NCBI GenBank assembly: GCA_964016885.1
Contig: OZ024747.1
Span: forward strand, 2,666,001-2,730,000
Length of the DNA stretch: 64,000 nt
Reading direction: 5' to 3'
Source: Eledone cirrhosa
Lineage: Eukaryota
Positions 34,842 to 61,447 of the stretch are shown here, piece by piece. The position numbers were made by a program, and so were the translations under genes. Within the stretch, counting starts at the first letter, position 1; the number at the start of each line of letters is the position of its first letter. Below the pieces are notes generated by a model. That model searched no databases. It saw only the letters and a program-made list of their open reading frames with translations, and was not told where the DNA came from.

Positions 34842-37250
34842 ATGATGATAAAACTTTGTATAATATTATTTATTCTTGGAGAATCAATGTCTGTAGATGT
34901 TATCTTCATGTGTCAGAGGGTCATAGTCCAGGTACATTTATAGGGAGCATTGCAGATGAAACTCACTTCTGGACAGTATGCCTTCTCAAGAACATGGCTC
35001 TGTTACATTCAGCCAATTACATGAAAGTAGAAGTGAAGATTTTGAACTGTTTAATATAACAAACTCAGGAAAGATGTACACAACACAAGTTTTAGATGCA
35101 GAATCTCTTTGTAAATATAACACAGAATGTTTCAAGATGATAGAAATTGCAGTGAGGCACGAGGAATCTTTTGTCCGGATTTTGGAAATTAAAATAATTA
35201 TTGATGATATTAATGACAATGCTCCTGAATTCTCCAGCAAACAATCAAACTCCAATTTTCAGAAACTGACAGAGAAGGCTTTATGAAATCAATACCAAAT
35301 TCTGTAGACAAAGACGTTAGTACACTATATAACCAGATTAATTATCAGCTTTATAAGAACCCAGATGAACCTTTTTCCCTATCTGTTAATAAGAAAGTTG
35401 ATGGAACAGCTAAAATTGGTATCATGTTAGAAGAAGCTCTTGATAGAGAACTAAAAGATAGTTATTCCCTGCAGGTCATTGCTAGAGATGGTGGATCACC
35501 ACCAAAAGAAGGAATTTTAGATATACAAATATCGGTTACAGATGAAAATGATAATTCTCCAGCCTTTTCTCAGGATATATATAATGTCTCAATTAATAAC
35601 GGTTTTCGAAAAGATGTTCCAGTTTTTGTTTTGCATGCAACAGACCTAGACTCAGGAAAAAACGGGGAAATTTTATACCAATTTGGCTCAAAAACCTCTC
35701 CATTAGCAAAATCCCATTTTACAATAAATAAGAGAACTGGAGATATTTTCCAATCAAGAACACATTATGGTGAAAGGAAACAAATGTATAAGCTTTATAT
35801 TGAAGCTATCGATAATGGCAATCCTCCTTTAAGTTCAACTGCTATTGTTTTGATAAACATATTGAATGAAGAAAATAATGCTCCACGAATAGATATGAAA
35901 TTTGTATCAAAATTTGAAGGTAACAGAGTTACAATATCTGAAGGAGTAAAAGTTGGCAGTTTCATTGCCTATGTGAAAGTTATAGATAATGATGTTGGTT
36001 TAAATGGAGAGGTTTCCTGTCAACTTCAACATGATAAATTGGAACTCAGAAGTTTGGGAACAAACAAATATAAAGTAGTCATCAAGAACACAGTAAACAG
36101 AGAAAGTCAAAGTCAACTTAATTTTGCAGTTGAGTGTGAAGACAGAGGATTGCCTCCATTATTAACCAAAAGAATGTTTACTGTCCAAATAAAAGATGTC
36201 AATGACATACAGCCACACTTTACTCGTGAGGTTTTCAAATTTTTAACTTATGAAAATGAGAAACCAAATTTTCCAATTGGCCTAATTAATGCAACTGACC
36301 AAGACCAGGGATCTGGTGGTCAGCTTTCCTTCTCTTTGCTGAATGACCACGGTCATATTTTACCATTTAAAATATCCAATTTTGGGTTTATTGCAACAAC
36401 TCAAATGCTTGACCGAGAACAACAAGACATCTATAAATTTAAAGTTTTAGTGAAGGATAATGGCATTCCTCCATTAAGTAATACTGCCACTGTAATTGTT
36501 GAAGTTATGGATAAGAATGACAATGCCCCATATTTTACATTTCCAAGTGTTAGCCCTTTCACTTTAGACGTCCACTATCATCCACAGAGTAATAATGACA
36601 TCACAACATTGAGAGCTTCTGATAGAGACAGCCATGTTAATGCTTTCCTCAAATATGAAATACTTAGCGGAAATGGAAAACAATTATTTTCAATAAATCC
36701 TTACACTGGTACTTTGTCTTATTACCGAACAGTTTACCAAAATGATGCTGGATTATATGATCTTCAGTTTGTTGTCAAAGACAGTGGTACACCAGTTTTA
36801 TCAGCAACAACGACTCTGTCTTTGACATTGACTGTCAGTAACAATACATCTAAAATGTTTACAGCTGTAGGCACAGAAGCTGATAAAAAGATACATTTTA
36901 ATTTAGTTGCTGTTATAGTCATTGCGGCTGTCATTGTATCTGTTGCTATTGTGGTATCCATTGCAATATGTATCATTCAGAAAAACAACCAAAGAAAATT
37001 CCTCTATACTAATGATGTAGATGGGAATAATAAGTTCGTTGAAGAGAGGAGACCATCAGAATATGTCTCTGAAAGTGTTTCTCCTCAGTATGATATTTCT
37101 ATTACAATGGTATCTGACAACAGCATGAAAAGAAACACACAAACAGCTACACTTAAAAAAGAATCACTTCCCAGACATAAACCTGGACAAAATTGGAAAA
37201 ATTCCCCAACAGGAATATTACACCAAAATATTATCCAAGGGACGCATCAG
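34842..37250 (+). CDS. Protocadherin main coding exon (signal peptide, 6 EC repeats, TM, start of cytoplasmic tail), broken by three 1-nt deletions (assembly error or young pseudogene)
   Basis: ATG at 34842 gives MMIKLCIILFILGESMS-VDVIF. Joining frames at about 34905, 34967 and 35243 gives HVSEGHSPGTFIGSIA..LDAESLCKYNTEC..DINDNAPEF, then ORF 35283 with LDRE, DENDNSPAF, ATDLDSG, DVNDIQP and DKNDNAPYF cadherin motifs and TM FNLVAVIVIAAVIVSVAIVVSIAICII. Donor CAG|GTAAGT at 37250/37251 (phase 0). About 804 codons once repaired. Confidence 0.95.
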
Positions 37251-39896
37251 GTAAGTTTTTACATTTATAGTTTCTCTTACAAGTATGTTGTTACTTAATC
37301 AATATCAATGAGAAAAACTCTACTAAATCAGAACTTGGAATTAATAGAAATTTGGTTGAAATCCAACTTAAATACATAGCTTCAATACTAATACAATTTG
37401 TTCAGAAAGTGATTCCTATTTCTTGAAATATTCTCATGTCACCTGATATAAATACTTGAGTGTTCTGAGTTAGCCACTCTTACAGTCTCACATGATTTCT
37501 CTAGAAGAAAAACTATTCAAGGAAAACACTAAAATATAAAAAAAGAAGTTTGCCAGGAGAATACTAAGAATCTGTAATTGAATAGTTCCATGAGATGTGT
37601 TGGAGATCATTTTATATATTCTTCTAACCTAATATTTCTTTCAGTTATTCTAATTATCTTTATTCAATTTGTGTCATTAGATTATTTAACATCAGAAAAA
37701 ACTTTCAAGAATTTAATTATTTCATTTAAACTGAGTTAAAAAAAATTTGCAAAAGTATTTGAGAAAATTCTCAGTTCAGATTCAGAATACAAGGCCTGGT
37801 AATTGCAACATTGTACAAAGACAGACCATTGCAAAAGGATGTTAAGGTGTGATTGATAGTTTTCAACAAATTTATCATATCAATTGATAATAGAAAAAAA
37901 AAAAGCTACAGAGAGAATCAAGTTACAAGAAGCAATAGTAAAAAAAATAAGAAATAAATTTAATCAAATATCAGTAAAGATATAGAGGCTATAGTTAAGT
38001 GATAGTGACATTTGACAGAAGGGAAATGTGTCATGTTACTAAACAGTGCTGATATCATGTCTTTATCTGTCCATTAGTGTTGAAACTGGGCTTATTGATT
38101 GATTAATAAACATTCCTTGCTTCCTCCTGTTTTCACACATCCAAGTGTGTTTTACAATGTAACTCCTAATTAATTGATTCAGTCTTTCAGATAGAAGTCT
38201 AAACATTTGGATTATAGAATTACCAGCATTGTATTGAAACCTTGATTAACATCTTCTCTCCTACTGTGACTCTTAGAATGTAGTTGCTTGCTTTTTAATG
38301 CATTTTTACTTCTTTTATACATATTATCTGATTCACTATACAAAGAGGGACATGCCCTTGATTAGATACAATTGACAAGTAGATTTTCACAAACACACAT
38401 ACAAACATACATATACATATATAAATACACATACACATATACATACACATATACTAATCACAGTCACAGATACTCACACAAGTAACAAGTAGAAATAAAG
38501 TACAGTATCAGAATAAATGTTAAAGAGTTAATATCACAAATAATAATCAAGGAAAAATCTCATTGTCTGAAAGAGAAATGGAACTGCTGTGAGGGGAAAA
38601 ACTTAATAGCATGATTAATGTGAAAAAGAGATGGTATATGTCGAGAACGGTTTTATAGAGAATTGCATGGAGATAGAATAAACAGAACATATTTTGTAAT
38701 AACATCTGACTTCATGACTATTTTAGTGTTATCATTGAGTAAATTGAAATATAAGTAACTTCCTTTACATTTGTATTACTGGCTTAATATCAATGTATCT
38801 GAAATATTTCAGGACTATATAAATAGTATTAGTTGAAGTGAACAAAGAAAGATTATAAATATTTATGGAGGAAAATATACTTTTCTTTTTATTTACCTTC
38901 ATTTCAGCCTTCAAACTATCAAATGTAGGTTTTCATAACAGCATGGTTGTATCACTGTTTATAAATAAAGTATTTCATTTTCAAATGCCAGTGAAGATTT
39001 AGTGTAAGAATCTTAACATGATTGTGCCAATATTTAATACGATGAACTCACTATTTCTTTTAGAAATACCACTCAGGAATTGGTGTTAGATTATTTCCTG
39101 TGGACATCTAATGAGCAGACATTAACAGTAAGAAACTTCTTAGTAAATGAATCTAACAAGAATTTCACAATTCCTAATAACTATTTTATTATTTGTGTTA
39201 TATAAATCTAGAACATTTAAATCCCACACAGGGATTCAGGTAGTACACCAGACCAGGACCCAGAGAACCTAGGATGGGCCAGTGAATATCTAATAACTCC
39301 CATCCCAAAAAGAATATCTTTGGCCCTCCTGAGTTTTGAGATAAGCTGAATCTGCAGTAATGACACCTAAAACGGTTGTATTCCACCTTGCAAAGTTTCA
39401 CTTGGAGGCTCTTACTGGACATTGTAATAAGGCAAACAAGAACTGTTGTTTTATAAACTGGATTTAAAAGTACATAAATCACTAAGAACTCTGTGGGCTA
39501 ATAAATGTTGGTATTTAGCTCTAGACTTACCCTTTCAGAGCAGAACCACAAGGAAAACTTCCAAAATATTTGGCCTAGTCTCACATCTGGATGAATTAAT
39601 CCTTTTGATAACAACCTAACTGAAACTGGTCCTGGTTATGTGTAACAAATCCACCTATTTTAAATGCTTGCTATATATATATCAAGAATGGTGTACTCAT
39701 GTGTGAAGATGCTATAAAACAGCTTATAAAATTGAGTAAAGATCCTTAGAGATAGAAAAGAAGTTGCCATCAGCTGCTGAGAGGAACTGAACCCCATATT
39801 TCCCAGATACCAGCTAGGCACTTTAAACCATTAAGCTAAGGGACTTTGGCAACTCTTAAATTAGATTGCTGAATCACAGCTTTTAAATGTAAACAA

Positions 39897-45352: not shown

Positions 45353-45414
<62 letters not shown>

Positions 45415-45545
45415 GATAAATCTACCAAGAGTTTACGGTAGTGTCCAATCCGTATGAAGAACTCAATGTATTCCGGATATCATGGAAAGAAGAGATGTAA
45501 TGAAAATCCAATTTCGGTGAAAGATAAACGGTATACAGAGTCAAG

Positions 45546-46521
45546 ATAAAATATTAAACAAATAATGAACAAACAATTCCTTATATTAAACAAAAAAAGT
45601 TCACTATTTAACGATCGTTTCTAGGGCATATATGTGCTATAATTGGTATGCATATTTAACAGATCTATGTACAAAATTATACAAAATTATACAAATTATC
45701 AAGATTAAATATACATACCTAACTCATATATACGCCGTCTTCAGAAATAATGAAGTATATTTATTGATAATAACAACAATTCAAAATATCAGTTCAAAAT
45801 TGACCAATGAAAACACAAAGGGTTAAAAAGCAGTTTGGTGTGTGTATATACATGTAAAACCCTACACACATTTTACAATAATGTGTGTATAATATGTATG
45901 TGCATACTAAAAAGATGGATGCAAATAAAAAATTTCAAGGTTAATATCTCTGTAAGCTTAATGCGCTGATAAGATACGCAATGATACTTATGTAGTCAAG
46001 CATATAAATATATTTTTTTCATACTCACACATATCAGTATAATCACACATACATGTGCGTATATATATAAATATACACATAACCACGAACACACAAACAC
46101 ACACACACCCCCCACTCACATTTATATATGTGGATATAAAATCATAAGCAAATAGAAATTAAGTCACTCACATAAACACACTGGTACACACATTTCAAGA
46201 TCAAGATACAGAAATTAGGTGGGAGGGGGGGGGAGGGGTCAGTATTAGGTTGTCAGACCAGACAGCCTAATATAAATGTATCTATAAATTATGAAAAATA
46301 AAAAAATAAGAACAATAAAATATATTACATAATATAATGTACATACGCATACAGATATACATACACATACGTACATGTACGCGCACATAGAGATATCTAC
46401 ACATACATACATACACACATACCTATACTGTCCTACACACACATACATTTACACGAACATACACATACACATATAAAAAGATAAAAATACGGACACACAC
46501 ACGCGCAACACATACACACAT

Positions 46522-46566
<45 letters not shown>

Positions 46567-46673
46567 TATACACACACACACATAGACTCATATATATATA
46601 CATACACATACATATACTTATACATAAACATATATATCCCACACTCATACCACCATGAAAACACATACAAACA
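45546..46673 (-). repeat. Left arm of 1128-bp inverted repeat
   Basis: Reverse complement of 50012-51139. All mirrored landmarks sum to 96685 (e.g. identical ORFs 45632-45826 and 50859-51053; 46245-46448 and 50237-50440). Confidence 0.97.
45600..45754 (-). ncRNA. Mirror copy of the type I hammerhead ribozyme
   Basis: Reverse complement of 50931-51085 in the left arm. Confidence 0.8.
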
Positions 46674-46727
46674 ACTTCTACTAAAAATACTGAAAACATA
46701 CAGCATAATATTACCAACAAACACCAA

Positions 46728-47699
46728 ATGAAAGGTACACACCTAAATGCCACCCACAGTATACCCCAAAATACTAAATCTTCTAATATAAAGTATAGTA
46801 ACCCTCAAAAAACTACTCATCATAAGACTATAATAAATATTAATAATAAAACTCCTAATAAAAAAGATAAAACACCTAAATCTACAAATATAACTAAAAA
46901 TAGTTGTGGTGAGATCATTAACATTATTCCTCCTAGTAAAAATCATGATACAACATATAAAAATAATAAAAATAATAAACAACATAGAAACCGTAATAGA
47001 CGAGTTACTTGGTATAATGCTCCTTTTAATTTACAAGTTAAGGATAATATTGCTAAAAAATTTTTTTATATCCTTGAGAAAAACTTCCCGCCAAACCACA
47101 AATACCATCAAATCTTAAATAGGTCTACAGTTAAATTCTCATATTCTACAACAAATAACATAAAACAAAATATAAGTGCATATAATGCATATAAATGTAA
47201 GAAAACTATAAGTATACCACCAGTACATCAAATTAACAATAATATCTCCTCAAATACAGAATTAACGAAAGGATGTAACTGTAGAAACAAAACAAACTGC
47301 CCATTAAAAGGGAATTGTCTTGTTAACAACATAGTCTATAAATGTAATGTTAAAACTAAAGATTCTATTTGCTCATATATAGGAGCTACCTCTAACAATT
47401 TTAAGACAAGGTATAATACCCACAAACATAGCTTTAAAAATGCCGCACTGGCTAATACAACATCTCTAGCAGAAAAAATCAATAGTTATAAAAATAAAAA
47501 TATAAAATATGATTTGACCTGGAGTGTGCTCAAAAGAGCCACCCCTTATCAAAATAATAGAAAGGAATGTAGATTATGTTCCCAAGAACTATTTGAAATA
47601 ATGAAGTCTAGTGATATCTTATTAAATAAAAGACAGGAATTAATTATATCGTGTAATCATAAACTAAAAAAAACATTTAAATATTATAAACCTAATTAA
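46728..47699 (+). CDS. GIY-YIG endonuclease region of a Penelope-like element
   Basis: 323-aa ORF with [72 protein letters not shown] and SCNH. The frame is open back to the arm junction at 46674. No YxDD RT core. Confidence 0.9.
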
Positions 47700-49522
47700 T
47701 AACATTATTCTAGAATTTAATTTAATTTAAATGTTAGTTAACCTATAAATTTAATTTAATTAATATTTTATTACAGATGAGAAAATATTATGTAATCATT
47801 AATTTTGAAAAACCTTTAAATATTACTAATATATATTCAGTAATTTAATTTATAGATTAATTTTAACTTATTTTAACCTTTTATTATAATTTTTTAATTT
47901 AGTTTAACCTTTTATTATAAAATTTTTTTTATTATAATTCTTTTACAGATAAAATATAACAAAATAATATCATGTATCCTATGACGGAGAAAGAATTTTT
48001 AGTATTATTGACCTAATTAATATACATTTTGGAAATATATTTATTATTTGGTTTTAGCTTTAATCAACCTAAAACTTTAATTTTAATTTTAATTTGCTTA
48101 AAATTAGTATCCTTGTACAGACGAATTGCAGAATTTCATGTAATCATAGAATGGGAGGTGTTTTTGGATATATACCTAGTTAATATATTCTGTGCAAATT
48201 TTTTGGAAAAGATATGTATATCTATATGTATATGTATATGTGTGTATTGTATGTGTATCTGTATGTATATTTATGTGACTATATATGTATGTACGTGTGT
48301 ATATATATGTATATATATATATATATATATGTGTATGTATATGTATATGTATGTGTATGTGTATGTATATGTATGTGTATGCGTATTAATTTTGATTTTT
48401 ATTTGCATATAATTATATTATGCTATTGATGAAATACAATATCTGCTTTATGTATTGTATACCTAATTAACATATACTAATTAACATATACTATTGAAAT
48501 AAATATATAATTTTTAACTTAGTTTACATATAATTTATATGCTACTACCGATGTAATACTTTATTTTATTTTTATTTGGGTTTCTTTTCCCTATTATTAA
48601 CTTTAATTTAGTTATAATGTAATTAATAATCTACTACTGTTTGACTTCATAATTCTGCTTCAAATATTATAAACCTAACTAATTTACACCTTGGAAATCA
48701 ATATGTTGACTATCTTTGGTTTAGTTGACATATGATTAATGGTATACTTTTTTATTTTGTGATGCATAGATTTCGTATTTCCTAGCATTGAAAATATGTA
48801 AGAACATACATTGAATTAAGATTTGGAAAATATTATAGGTTTCTTGAAACATATATTTACTTTGATCCCCTTCTCCAAACCCCCCCCTTTCCCCCATACT
48901 ATTATCATCTGTTTTTGTAAGTGTATATGTATGAATATATGGGTAGATGGGTGTCTATATAGTTTTTTTTTTTTGGTATTTATTTCTAGATATAAAAATA
49001 CATATATGAGCATGTAAATATGAATGTAAGATTGAGTGTGTATATATGATTGTACATACATATGTATGTATATGTATGTATATATATGTATTATATATGT
49101 ACGTGTATGTGAATGTGTGGTATATATATGTGTAGGTATATGTATATATGTGTGCGTATGTGTATGCTTGTATATAGGAATATATATGTGTGTATATATG
49201 TATATATGTATATGCGTGTTTGCATGTATGTGTATATGGGTTCTGTATATATTTGTATGTCTCTCTATTTATATGTTTATCTTCGTATCTATGTGATATA
49301 TGTGTGTGTGTGTGCATGTATGCATATGTATGTGTTTGTGTGTGTTTGTATGTGTGTATGTATGTATATGTATGTATTTGCGCACACTCACATACACATA
49401 TATATATATATATATATATATATGTGAGTGTGTATGTGTGTCTGTATGTGTGTGCGTGTGTATATATGTGTATATATATGTATATATATGTGTATGTATG
49501 TGTATGTGTGTGTATATAGATA

Positions 49523-49561
<39 letters not shown>

Positions 49562-49700
49562 ATATAGGTGTCTATGTGTGAATATATGTCTTTATTCGTA
49601 TGTGTGTATTTATATATGTTTATATTTAGGTGTATGTATGTATGTGTATGTATGTATGTATATGTATGTGTATGTATGTATATGTGTATATGTGTGTATA

Positions 49701-49737
<37 letters not shown>

Positions 49738-49958
49738 CTTTATTATTATTGTAATATAACTTATGTGTATATGTGTATAAGTGAGGTTGTGTATGTATAT
49801 ATACTATGTGTATATATAAGGGTAATGAAATGTATATATATATATATATATATATATATGTGCATGTCTGTATTTTATGTGTGTGTGTATATATATATAT
49901 ATATGTGTATGTGTGTATATGTGTATGTATATATGCATATATGTGTACGTGTGTGTAT

Positions 49959-50008
<50 letters not shown>

Positions 50009-50011
50009 GGA

Positions 50012-50118
50012 TGTTTGTATGTGTTTTCATGGTGGTATGAGTGTGGGATATATATGTTTATGTATAAGTATATGTATGTGTATGTATATATATATGAGTC
50101 TATGTGTGTGTGTGTATA

Positions 50119-50163
<45 letters not shown>

Positions 50164-51136
50164 ATGTGTGTATGTGTTGCGCGTGTGTGTGTCCGTATTT
50201 TTATCTTTTTATATGTGTATGTGTATGTTCGTGTAAATGTATGTGTGTGTAGGACAGTATAGGTATGTGTGTATGTATGTATGTGTAGATATCTCTATGT
50301 GCGCGTACATGTACGTATGTGTATGTATATCTGTATGCGTATGTACATTATATTATGTAATATATTTTATTGTTCTTATTTTTTTATTTTTCATAATTTA
50401 TAGATACATTTATATTAGGCTGTCTGGTCTGACAACCTAATACTGACCCCTCCCCCCCCCTCCCACCTAATTTCTGTATCTTGATCTTGAAATGTGTGTA
50501 CCAGTGTGTTTATGTGAGTGACTTAATTTCTATTTGCTTATGATTTTATATCCACATATATAAATGTGAGTGGGGGGTGTGTGTGTGTTTGTGTGTTCGT
50601 GGTTATGTGTATATTTATATATATACGCACATGTATGTGTGATTATACTGATATGTGTGAGTATGAAAAAAATATATTTATATGCTTGACTACATAAGTA
50701 TCATTGCGTATCTTATCAGCGCATTAAGCTTACAGAGATATTAACCTTGAAATTTTTTATTTGCATCCATCTTTTTAGTATGCACATACATATTATACAC
50801 ACATTATTGTAAAATGTGTGTAGGGTTTTACATGTATATACACACACCAAACTGCTTTTTAACCCTTTGTGTTTTCATTGGTCAATTTTGAACTGATATT
50901 TTGAATTGTTGTTATTATCAATAAATATACTTCATTATTTCTGAAGACGGCGTATATATGAGTTAGGTATGTATATTTAATCTTGATAATTTGTATAATT
51001 TTGTATAATTTTGTACATAGATCTGTTAAATATGCATACCAATTATAGCACATATATGCCCTAGAAACGATCGTTAAATAGTGAACTTTTTTTGTTTAAT
51101 ATAAGGAATTGTTTGTTCATTATTTGTTTAATATTT

Positions 51137-51139
<3 letters not shown>
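50012..51139 (+). repeat. Right arm of 1128-bp inverted repeat
   Basis: Reverse complement of 45546-46673; ends directly in (TA)n. Confidence 0.97.
50931..51085 (+). ncRNA. Type I hammerhead ribozyme with extended stem II
   Basis: Stem I TTCATTATTT/AAATAGTGAA; CTGAAGA at 50941-50947; stem II GGCGTATAT/ATATATGCC plus GGTATGTATATTTAA/TTAAATATGCATACC; GAAAC-GATC-GTT with predicted cleavage after 51075. Confidence 0.8.
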
Positions 51140-51167
<28 letters not shown>

Positions 51168-51436
51168 TAATATATATGTTGTATATGATATATATACGTA
51201 TATGTGTATGTGCTTTGTGTGTATCTATGTGTTTGTGTGTGGACGTGTAATTAGTGTATGAATATTATTGTTAGTGTTATTCTGCTTTCATCTATATTTT
51301 GCTAGTGAGCTTAAGAAGGAATTCTGATTCATTCTACAGAACTCATAATAATCTGGTCATGCTTGTGCTATGAATCAACTGTCCATTCTGTAATCAGAGA
51401 AAATGAGACCACATTTAATGTACACATATATATATT

Positions 51437-52047
51437 GATAAACATATACATACTGTCATGATAAACACATACATACTGTCATGATAAACACATACATACT
51501 GTCATGATAAACACATACATACTGTCATGATATACACATACATACTGCCATGATAAACACATACATACTGTCATGATAAACACATACATACTGTCATGAT
51601 AAACACATACATACTGTCATGATAAACACATACATACTGTCATTATATACACATACATACTGTCATGATAAACACATACATACTGTCATGATATACACAT
51701 ACATACTGTCATGATAAACACATACATACTGTCATGATATACACATACATACTGTCATGATAAACACATACATACTGTCATGATAAACACATACATACTG
51801 TCATGATAAACACATACATACTGTCATGATAAACACATACATACTGTCATGATATACACATACATACTGTCATGATAAACACATACATACTGTCATGATA
51901 AACACATACATACTGTCATTATATACACATACATACTGTCATGATAAACACATACATACTGTCATGATAAACACATACATACTGTCATGATAAACACATA
52001 CATACTGTCATTATATACACATACATACTGTCATGATAAACACATAC
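51437..52047. repeat. 23-bp minisatellite, about 26 copies
   Basis: Unit TACTGTCATGATAAACACATACA with variants GATATAC and TTATATAC. Confidence 0.95.
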
Positions 52048-52880
52048 CATACACTTACACATATACATGTATACATACCCATATGCTACAGTTTACATAT
52101 ACACACAAAAATCTATACCTCCATCAATAAGTGCAATAATTTATGAGTTAATATTTTTCCTTCCATTTGACTTCAATTATATCAAAAATACACTTGAGAA
52201 ATGTATGAATGTCACATAATCTCAATATTTTCCCCCTAAAAATGTGTAGTTTACTGTTTTCCTAAGAGATCAATACATCACTTCTGTTTGTACAAAGTCA
52301 ATAAAGCAGACTTTGCATGCAAATGGTTACATATTATATTGCCAAATCTAAGCACTAAACTACATCAGCTCTTTGATAATTTACAGTTGTGAGTTTGATT
52401 CCTGCCAAGATCATCTTAGTGTTTAAGCCCCAACAGTTAATGTAATAAATACTTAGTTAGCCAATAAAAGATTACAGCTGAGCTGGTGTGTTGAGATAAT
52501 AAACCCTACAAACATTCAAAGTCTGGCTTCTGTTGGTCAATAACTACTGGCTAATAACTTGATAATGATAAAAATGAGGGTGTAGGTGAGATTAATTAGT
52601 GTATTTTAGTTTCTGTTATGGACAGATTGAACACATTTACATCTAGATGAGACTTTTGATATCAAATTTAGAATAATAATATCATTCCTATTCCCTTTAA
52701 CATCATCCTTTTTCTCCCCTAAACTTTATCACTCATTATTCCCATAAACATTATGATCCTTACTTTCCTACACATTATCAATCTGACATCTCTAACTACA
52801 GAAAGTAATGATATGAAAATTAGTTTAGCTGATTGAATAGTTTATCAGCATGGTCATACACCAAACAAGATGTCATAAAA

Positions 52881-61114: not shown

Positions 61115-61447
61115 ACATGGCTTAATGGTTAGAGCATTGGCCTTGCAATCGAAAGGTTGTGAGTTCAATTCTCAGACTGGGTGATGTGTTGTTTCCTTGA
61201 GCAAGAGACTTTATTTCACATTGCTCCAGTTTACTCAGCTGTAGAAATGAGATGATAGGGACTGTGGTCCCTATCATTCCACTGTAAAGTGGACGTGGAG
61301 GTGTCACGGTAAAAAAGCACCCAGCACTCACTGTAAATGAGGTTGGTGTTAGGAAGGGCATCCAGCTGTAGAAATCAAGCCAGAATCAGTTCCCGTCCCA
61401 CCCTTGCAAGCAGGGAAAAGCGGACGTAAAATGAAATGAAAATGAAA

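What the first reader, a model, noticed from the sequence alone, without database searches (positions are those of the whole stretch)
50931..51085. Type I hammerhead with an unusually long structured stem II (about 115 nt) and palindromic stem III
Seen: a complete core (CUGAAGA, GAAA, GUU), a 10-bp stem I with one G-U pair, and a stem II insert with two nested helices (9 and 15 bp, G-U pairs) capped by TTGTATAATT repeats. Known: PLE hammerheads often have tiny palindromic stem III and cleave as dimers. Inference: length-limited motif searches would miss this variant. A C and a CTA sit unpaired at the base of stem II and could reduce activity.
Basis: partly seen in the sequence, partly recalled or inferred. 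Interest (0 to 1): 0.8.

Follow-up and report, generated by a model that had tools for sequence, protein, structure and literature searches.

The report
Long-armed hammerhead in Hydra-clade retrotransposon
This is a predicted self-cutting RNA motif at the end of a very abundant, recently active jumping gene; one arm is four or more times longer than in described relatives yet keeps its pairing across nine subfamilies, and the element's RNA likely begins inside the motif, which would keep it from cutting there.

Summary
Confirmed: a type I hammerhead at 50931-51085 with a 116-nt stem II rod, plus an identical inverted copy at 45600-45754. It lies in the pLTR of a 5'-truncated Hydra-clade Penelope-like element. 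Intact 813-aa, 6.2-6.4 kb tandem units exist elsewhere, and about 17,800 3'-half motifs occur genome-wide. Across nine subfamilies the insert is 99-126 nt (described Hydra: 12-26). Stems I and II show compensatory changes, and C3-G8 switches to U3-A8 in two subfamilies. 29% of 5,887 counted copies break exactly 7 nt before C3, with excess G at the next base (428 versus 78 one base further). This suggests a capped RNA start inside stem I. Copies starting at the cut site are rare, so the enzyme mostly copies uncut RNA. Folding predicts 'off' at the RNA start and briefly 'on' in read-through RNA (4 of 7 subfamilies). Cleavage was not tested. The scan noted long-armed Hydra hammerheads and head-to-head minis before on other DNA. 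New variant of a known kind.

The parts
50931..50940 (+). Stem I, 5' strand; only 50934-50940 would be present in RNA starting at the inferred start
   Evidence: family-level pairing 63 of 63 cells, 3 of 7 pairs compensated
50934..50934 (+). Position -7 from C3: fixed 5' end of many genomic copies; inferred capped transcription start (TCA+1TT, Inr-like; the Inr resemblance is recalled, not tested)
50941..50947 (+). Hammerhead core C3-A9 (CUGAAGA); U3-A8 in subfamilies D and F
50948..51063 (+). Stem II rod, 116 nt; conserved base C.A / R-Y / G-C / C.C, then helices
50984..51023 (+). Apical module: GAU/AUC stem, 4x3 internal loop, UGUA/UACA stem; nearly invariant in sequence across the nine subfamilies, with a loop of variable length
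51064..51075 (+). GAAA core, palindromic stem III (51067-51074), predicted cleavage after U51075 (GUU; GUA in most other subfamilies)
51076..51085 (+). Stem I, 3' strand
51115..51125 (+). Downstream copy of the stem I 5' strand; predicted to sequester the 3' strand in an 11-bp hairpin just before the short element end
46674..47699 (+). 5'-truncated ORF (aa 473-813 of the 813-aa protein): linker CxCx5C and GIY-YIG endonuclease; RT half missing in this copy
46674..51139 (+). Forward, 5'-truncated Hydra-clade PLE copy with a ~3.2-kb 3' UTR/pLTR, ending at the short end in (TA)n
45411..46673 (-). Inverted 5'-truncated pLTR copy ending at the long end in (TA)n; 45546-46673 is 100% complementary to 50012-51139
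45600..45754 (-). Identical second hammerhead in the inverted arm

Best explanation
The motif is the pLTR hammerhead of a very abundant, recently active Hydra-clade Penelope-like retrotransposon, its 99-126-nt stem II rod keeps its pairing through compensatory changes, and the element's RNA likely starts, capped, 7 nt before the core, where folding is predicted to hold the ribozyme off so that uncut RNA serves as the copying template. SHOWN: host element, copy numbers, conserved structure, the fixed 5' end at -7 with excess G, two fixed 3' ends in (TA)n, and read-through of the cut site in nearly all copies. INFERRED: (1) The pLTR promoter starts at A50934, leaving a 7-bp stem I. (2) In that RNA the strand UUUCUG pairs with YAGAAA and a downstream copy of the stem I strand captures the substrate strand, so cleavage is slow. 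(3) Reverse transcription starts at two sites about 55-65 and 190-205 nt past the cut site on two nicked DNA strands. When both copies run off the cap they join head to head as ~200-350-nt mini-arms. (4) In read-through RNA from an upstream tandem unit stem I is 9-10 bp or longer and the ribozyme can fold briefly, likely with a partner (dimer through the palindrome) or the element's protein. (5) The rod, with its C.C mismatch and invariant apical internal loop, likely serves as a protein-binding or tertiary-contact arm rather than filler.
For: Host: an 813-aa ORF 488 nt after C3 in 6.2-6.4 kb tandems with RWR, DKT, YRDD, CxCx5C, no CCHH, and CxxC/CxH, matching the Hydra definition in PMC8557442. 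Abundance: 15,915 and 1,883 exact 3'-half motifs versus 12 and 2 control hits. Selection on structure: proximal stem II 88 of 90 family-level cells paired, 8 of 10 pairs with two-sided change, shuffle mean 66.1, 0 of 5,000 shuffles as high, slid registers 17-61 of 90. On 23 aligned copies 98.8% of cells are paired with 24 two-sided cells, 0 of 500 shuffles. U3-A8 core in 779 pattern hits. 5' end: non-native base at -8 in 1,730 versus native in 4,157; 23 of 97 distinct sampled copies break at -6 to -8, 14 exactly at -7, in several subfamilies; G at -8 in 428 of 1,730 versus 78 of 1,730 at -9. Uncut template: 3 of 30 loci from 561 hits begin at the cut site, and 2 of these fit fold-back equally well. 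Switch: predicted P(stem I) <=0.04 from -7 versus 0.76-0.91 transiently from -47 in 4 of 7 subfamily representatives; the downstream decoy beats shuffles (<=28 of 500) in 8 of 10; MFE of the window RNA from -7 is the off fold. Precedent: uncut template, two internal RT starts and protein-dependent cleavage in anole Poseidon (PMC11167929).
Against: No RNA data: no RNA run was listed, so transcription, start site and cleavage are unobserved. 0 of 22 ORF-linked upstream hammerheads and 0 of 30 sampled -7 copies show a full element starting at -7. This is weak, because only 3 of 30 youngest-subfamily copies break at -7 (about 2 of 22 expected), but the direct prediction is unmet. Some -8 G's can be templated by the partner arm (L142/L143, L263), and three quarters of -7 copies lack the G. 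The switch fails in 3 of 7 representatives (B off both ways, D and F on both ways). A longer stem I is trivially more stable, and nearest-neighbour energies ignore the core's tertiary stability. The nine subfamilies are related: most two-sided changes come from three deep lineages (A-C/G/H, E, D/F), so cell counts overstate independent events. 'Pairs with a change on both sides' alone was not above shuffles (68 of 500). The apical pairs never vary and so prove nothing about pairing.
Confidence: 0.6

Rival explanations
1. An ordinary PLE hammerhead that cleaves weakly as a dimer wherever it sits. The long rod is tolerated cargo kept paired only to avoid misfolding of the core, and the -7 end is a transcription start with no regulatory link to ribozyme activity.
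For: PLE hammerheads with longer helix II, palindromic helix III and U3-A8 are described (PMC4209133). Any stem II insert must pair to leave the core intact. The predicted switch is absent in 3 of 7 representatives.
Against: Insert length stays within 99-126 nt, and the C.C mismatch and apical internal loop are kept while the helices turn over. A downstream decoy is present in 8 of 10 representatives.
Confidence: 0.3
2. The -7 end is not a transcription start but a reverse-transcriptase stop, a fold-back or self-priming point at stem I, or an endonuclease nick in the element's own AT-rich pLTR.
For: The cDNA end at -7 is complementary to the cDNA of the stem I 3' strand, and two loci fit fold-back (L168, L185). 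Self-priming was proposed for PLE palindromic junctions (PMC3846280). The anole enzyme prefers ATT in its own pLTR. No full-length element starting at -7 was seen.
Against: Both arms of head-to-head pairs stop independently at -7 with filler between them. Solo copies also start there. G excess is 5.5-fold at -8 versus -9. The position holds although the stem I sequence differs between subfamilies.
Confidence: 0.25
3. The conserved apical sequence is a DNA-level internal promoter element downstream of the start, and the rod is the RNA by-product that accommodates it; mini-copies could then be transcribed on their own.
For: The apical motif is nearly invariant in sequence with no compensatory change and lies 50-90 nt after the inferred start. 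The D. virilis Penelope promoter has a downstream element (PMC2377424).
Against: The motif is itself complementary across the loop, with loop length varying by more than 10 nt. Mini-copy junctions sampled were mostly different from one another, which fits separate origins; self-propagation was not tested genome-wide.
Confidence: 0.12
4. A catalytically dead relic: the rod arose by fold-back duplication and the core is carried passively.
For: PLEs make inverted duplications readily. C10.1.A11.1 and GUU are suboptimal (textbook knowledge, recalled).
Against: The C3-G8 to U3-A8 double change, an invariant core, H17 restricted to U/A/C in family majorities, and compensated stems I and II.
Confidence: 0.05

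Closest known systems
Hydra clade of C-terminal EN+ PLEs and their hammerheads (Craig et al. 2021, PMC8557442; passages, File S1 Hydra sheet and the whole File S2 table read)
   Same: RW[K/R], DKT, CxCx5C linker, no CCHH, CxxC/CxH, (TA)n targets, inverted 5'-truncated copy and tail; type I HHR in the pLTR with palindromic stem III, frequent first-pair mismatch, frequent U17.
   Different: In the 26 Hydra rows of File S2 the stem II insert is 12-26 nt (longest in the table about 53 nt, PLE-X1_sMoe) versus 99-126 here. Elements there are mostly <3 kb versus 6.2-6.4 kb here. No fixed 5' end inside stem I is mentioned in what I read.
PLE minimal hammerheads (Cervera and de la Pena 2014, PMC4209133; introduction, results, discussion read)
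   Same: Longer-than-usual helix II, palindromic helix III, U3-A8 core variant, low predicted monomer activity.
   Different: Helix II of 6-8 bp with G10.1-C11.1 and an extra 5' nucleotide there; here a ~40-bp interrupted rod with Y10.1.A11.1 in register and a conserved C.C.
Poseidon of Anolis carolinensis (Frangieh et al. 2024, PMC11167929; main text parts 1-2 of 4 read)
   Same: Two internal RT start sites that define the element ends, uncut RNA as template, AT-rich targets.
   Different: There the HHR overlaps the ORF start and the tail is 30-40 nt; here the HHR is 488 nt upstream of the ATG and the two ends are ~140 nt apart. Protein-assisted cleavage was shown there and is untested here.
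Drosophila virilis Penelope promoter (Schostak et al. 2008, PMC2377424; passages read)
   Same: Promoter in the pLTR with the HHR close to the RNA 5' end.
   Different: There the start is 46 nt before an intron that ends at helix I; here the inferred start lies inside stem I.

Membership tests
Type I hammerhead ribozyme | Core CUGANGA / GAAA / NUH in order, with C3-G8 pair | tested here: met
   C3-G8 or U3-A8 in all nine subfamilies
Type I hammerhead ribozyme | Three helices around the core, stem I open-ended | tested here: met
   stems I and II compensated; stem III only as an invariant palindrome
Type I hammerhead ribozyme | G10.1-C11.1 pair closing stem II | tested here: not met
   C.A in eight subfamilies, U-A in one. 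This is not strictly required: U.U and C.A are listed in PLE HHRs and U.U in PMC3088659
Type I hammerhead ribozyme | Match to an Rfam hammerhead model | tested here: not met
   no hit at gathering score or at E<=10; expected from the 116-nt insert
Type I hammerhead ribozyme | Site-specific self-cleavage giving 2',3'-cyclic phosphate | not testable with these tools
   no RNA run listed
Hydra-clade PLE | Single ORF, RT followed by C-terminal GIY-YIG endonuclease | tested here: met
   813-aa ORF with YRDD and YIG motifs; Pfam gave no RT or GIY-YIG hit, so this rests on motifs and alignment
Hydra-clade PLE | N-terminal RWK-type motif and DKT | tested here: met
   RWR and DKT
Hydra-clade PLE | CxCx5C linker, no CCHH in the GIY-YIG core, CxxC and CxH flanking E/N | tested here: met
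   against the definition
Hydra-clade PLE | pLTR, tandem and inverted 5'-truncated copies, tail, (TA)n targets | tested here: met
Hydra-clade PLE | Placement inside Hydra on an RT tree with named references | not tested
   named Hydra proteins were not available as session sequences
Hydra-clade PLE | Short element (<3 kb, 'generally') | tested here: not met
   unit 6.2-6.4 kb because of a ~3.2-kb 3' UTR
Non-LTR retrozyme | Short non-coding tandem repeats (about 300 nt) with one HHR per unit | tested here: not met
   the tandem unit is 6.2-6.4 kb and coding; minis are head-to-head or solo

The most novel reading that the evidence does not exclude
A hammerhead that senses its own position. Transcription starts inside stem I, so the 5' copy is locked (cap and template preserved) while the identical 3' copy in read-through RNA cuts. 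This would give an RNA with a 142-nt terminal repeat across which the reverse transcriptase's 'strong-stop' cDNA jumps, as in retroviruses. It would explain pLTR regeneration, tandem arrays and the thousands of head-to-head mini-copies as failed jumps, with the long stem II rod as the protein-bound handle.
Probability: 0.2. Interest if true: 0.85.

Novelty: new variant of a known kind. Interest (0 to 1): 0.52.

Why it matters
What hammerheads do in Penelope-like elements, and how pLTRs and tandems are regenerated, are stated as open in PMC8557442, PMC2377424 and PMC11167929. This family supplies an intact active element, nine natural ribozyme variants with covariation, and a genome-wide footprint of where the RNA begins and whether it was cut. 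That makes the question directly testable with short RNAs. It also shows that about 17,800 hammerhead motifs in one animal genome escape Rfam because of a single long helix.

Tried and rejected
Rfam found no hammerhead. Pfam found no family for the PLE protein. The look-up of sequencing runs: no RNA holder listed. Laying two contig runs showed the element and a rise of summed depth over the hammerhead-plus-tail region, but that depth is not a copy number and contigs show no RNA ends. The homologue search gave 117 unnamed relatives at 31-48% identity and the cluster look-up gave no names. A protein search of the own genome returned only the youngest copies (93 scored of 47,350 candidates). RNAalifold on the MAFFT alignment missed proximal stem II because the diverged families were misaligned there, so core-anchored counts were used. 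One search used a structure string shifted by two columns and was replaced. Naiad was considered and rejected (endonuclease is C-terminal, DKT, no CCHH). Retrozyme was rejected. The search for copies starting at the cut site mostly returned a GUA-site subfamily (27 of 30 loci). The repeat finder direct-repeat output was swamped by TA repeats. Lunse 2017 and Arkhipova 2017 were not held; longer-stem variants in them or their supplements could lower the novelty. Literature searches for a long stem II PLE hammerhead and for strong-stop or mini PLEs showed none in listings or in the passages read; subscription journals are not covered.

Full report
OBSERVATION. The motif is as described: 10-bp stem I with one U.G, CUGAAGA at 50941-50947, a 116-nt insert, GAAA at 51064-51067, an 8-nt palindrome and GUU ending at 51075. 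The insert folds into an interrupted rod (z = -5.9, 0 of 200 shuffles). A relaxed descriptor finds 2 hits in the window against 0.06 per shuffled window (100 shuffles). Rfam does not report it. An identical copy lies at 45600-45754 on the minus strand, inside a 1,128-nt perfect inverted repeat.

HOST ELEMENT. The window holds one insertion in (TA)n, 45411-51139: an inverted pLTR arm with a long end, then a 5'-truncated forward copy carrying aa 473-813 of an ORF, a ~3.2-kb 3' UTR, the hammerhead and a short end. All 40 scored genomic matches of the 211-nt region were 100% identical (840 candidates). Ten fetched stretches gave tandem units of 6.2-6.4 kb with an open frame of 830 codons (813 from Met) starting 488 nt after C3. 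The protein has RWR, DKT, YRDD, CxCx5C, a GIY-YIG domain without CCHH, and CxxC/CxH. These are the Hydra-clade features given in PMC8557442 (passages). No tree with named references was built. Most of the 93 scored ORF matches were open and 98-100% identical, so the family is recently active. This window's copy lacks RT, and its two hammerheads are on opposite strands, so they cannot dimerise within one transcript. The host looks like a cephalopod (3.0 Gb, TA-rich, cadherin exon at 35229-37298); this is inference and was not tested.

CONSERVATION. Exact 14-15-nt 3'-half motifs occur 15,915 and 1,883 times (controls 12 and 2). The loci returned were the first 30 by position for each pattern search or the best-scoring for each similarity search, not a random draw. 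From them 108 distinct complete motifs passing a pattern filter fell into nine subfamilies with inserts of 99-126 nt; copies with broken cores or 5' truncation inside the motif were excluded by that filter. The 26 Hydra rows of File S2 in PMC8557442 have 12-26 nt, and the longest row of that table about 53 nt. Counting from the core, family majorities give Y.A (C.A in eight, U-A in one), R-Y (G.U, A-U or G-C), G-C, C.C (C.U in one), then a helix whose sequence is replaced between lineages. 88 of 90 cells are paired and 8 of 10 pairs have two-sided changes; the shuffle mean is 66.1 with 0 of 5,000 as high, and slid registers give 17-61 of 90. Stem I pairs in 63 of 63 cells with 3 compensated pairs. 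C3-G8 becomes U3-A8 in two subfamilies (779 pattern hits for one). The tool count on 23 aligned copies agrees (98.8% paired, 24 two-sided cells, 0 of 500), though pairs with two-sided change alone do not beat shuffles (68 of 500), and the subfamilies are related. An apical module (GAU/AUC, 4x3 internal loop, UGUA/UACA) is nearly invariant in sequence; invariant pairs say nothing about pairing, but they suggest a binding site.

FIXED ENDS. Many copies begin exactly 7 nt before C3. Genome-wide, the base at -8 is non-native in 1,730 and native in 4,157 matches. Among 97 distinct copies from four sample sets not chosen on upstream sequence, 60 had native upstream sequence, 23 broke at -6 to -8 (14 at -7) and 14 broke elsewhere or carried upstream mutations. 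In the window's own youngest subfamily 3 of 30 break at -7 (653 matches). The typical product is a head-to-head pair in (TA)n, both arms starting at -7, one ending about 55-65 nt and the other about 190-205 nt after the cut site. G stands at -8 in 428 of the 1,730 and at -9 in 78. An extra G is the known trace of a copied cap (established knowledge, recalled), but some of these G's can come from the partner arm. Copies beginning at the cut site are rare: 3 of 30 loci from 561 hits, two of them also explicable by fold-back. The template therefore read through an intact site, as shown in vitro for anole Poseidon, which also uses two internal RT starts and needs protein to cleave (PMC11167929). 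Against the start-site reading: none of 22 ORF-linked upstream hammerheads starts at -7 (about 2 expected at the young-family rate), and none of 30 sampled -7 copies continues into the ORF.

MECHANISM. With RNA starting at -7, stem I has 7 bp and the predicted fold is inactive: UUUCUG pairs with UAGAAA, and 51076-51086 pairs with a downstream copy of the stem I strand at 51115-51125. The decoy beat shuffles in 8 of 10 representatives. Folding growing transcripts gave P(stem I) <=0.04 from -7 but 0.76-0.91 for a short window from -47 in 4 of 7 representatives; one was off and two were on in both cases. I therefore propose a ribozyme held off at the RNA's capped start and able to fold transiently in read-through RNA, likely helped by a partner palindrome (-10 kcal/mol duplex) or the element's protein. 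Confidence by step: hammerhead of a Hydra-type PLE 0.95; rod under selection 0.9; start at -7 0.7; position-dependent switch 0.35; strand transfer across the 142-nt repeat 0.2. No step involving RNA was observed.

COMPARISON. It works like other PLE hammerheads (PMC4209133, parts 1-2 of 4 read: palindromic helix III, U3-A8, longer helix II; PMC6765202, PMC7229834 and PMC3088659, passages). Head-to-head inverted pLTRs and tails are known (PMC3846280, passages), as is a pLTR promoter near the ribozyme (PMC2377424, passages). Part 1 of 5 of bioRxiv 10.64898/2026.07.22.740005 links retrozymes to PLE pLTRs. I found no report of a ~100-nt stem II in a PLE hammerhead or of a start inside stem I in searches; two relevant papers were not held. 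Earlier notes of this scan already mention long-armed Hydra hammerheads, U3-A8, locked hammerheads and minis meeting where the RNA begins, on other DNA. They are unchecked AI notes, read after my own counts.

VERDICT. A real, conserved, unusually long-armed variant of a known ribozyme in a known retrotransposon clade, with a useful genomic footprint of the replication mechanism. New variant of a known kind; interest 0.52.

Noticed in passing
L015:1149-1243 (+); L221-L245: A separate, sequence-unrelated hammerhead family (2,781 candidates) with a 62-nt stem II insert that also starts Y10.1.A11.1 and has a pyrimidine mismatch at the fourth pair, with two fixed 3' ends in (TA)n; its own ORF was not seen.
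   Followed up: partly
window 35229-37298 (+): 689-aa open frame with five cadherin domains (protocadherin-like exon), about 8 kb from the insertion; whether the insertion is intronic was not checked.
   Followed up: no
L031:870-940; window 45411-45480 (-): The sequence just before the long end is much better conserved between distant subfamilies than the rest of the tail and includes a predicted hairpin; a candidate RT-start signal.
   Followed up: partly
L031 ORF aa ~470-600; window 46674-47060: Asn/Thr/Lys-rich stretch of about 100 aa between RT and endonuclease, absent from most aligned relatives, reminiscent of the N-rich inserts in rotifer PLEs (PMC3846280).
   Followed up: no
L116, L093/L094, L199, L217: Copies in which part of stem II was rewritten as the complement of the other arm, suggesting template switching across the rod.
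   Followed up: no
L164, L170: In subfamily C1 two copies start at -10 with a G before, a possible second start site.
   Followed up: no
window 61116-61179 (+): Weak tRNA match (29.9 bits), probably a tRNA-derived SINE head.
   Followed up: no
window 51436-52052: 23-bp minisatellite, 26.8 copies, 95% matches, 300 nt downstream of the element.
   Followed up: no
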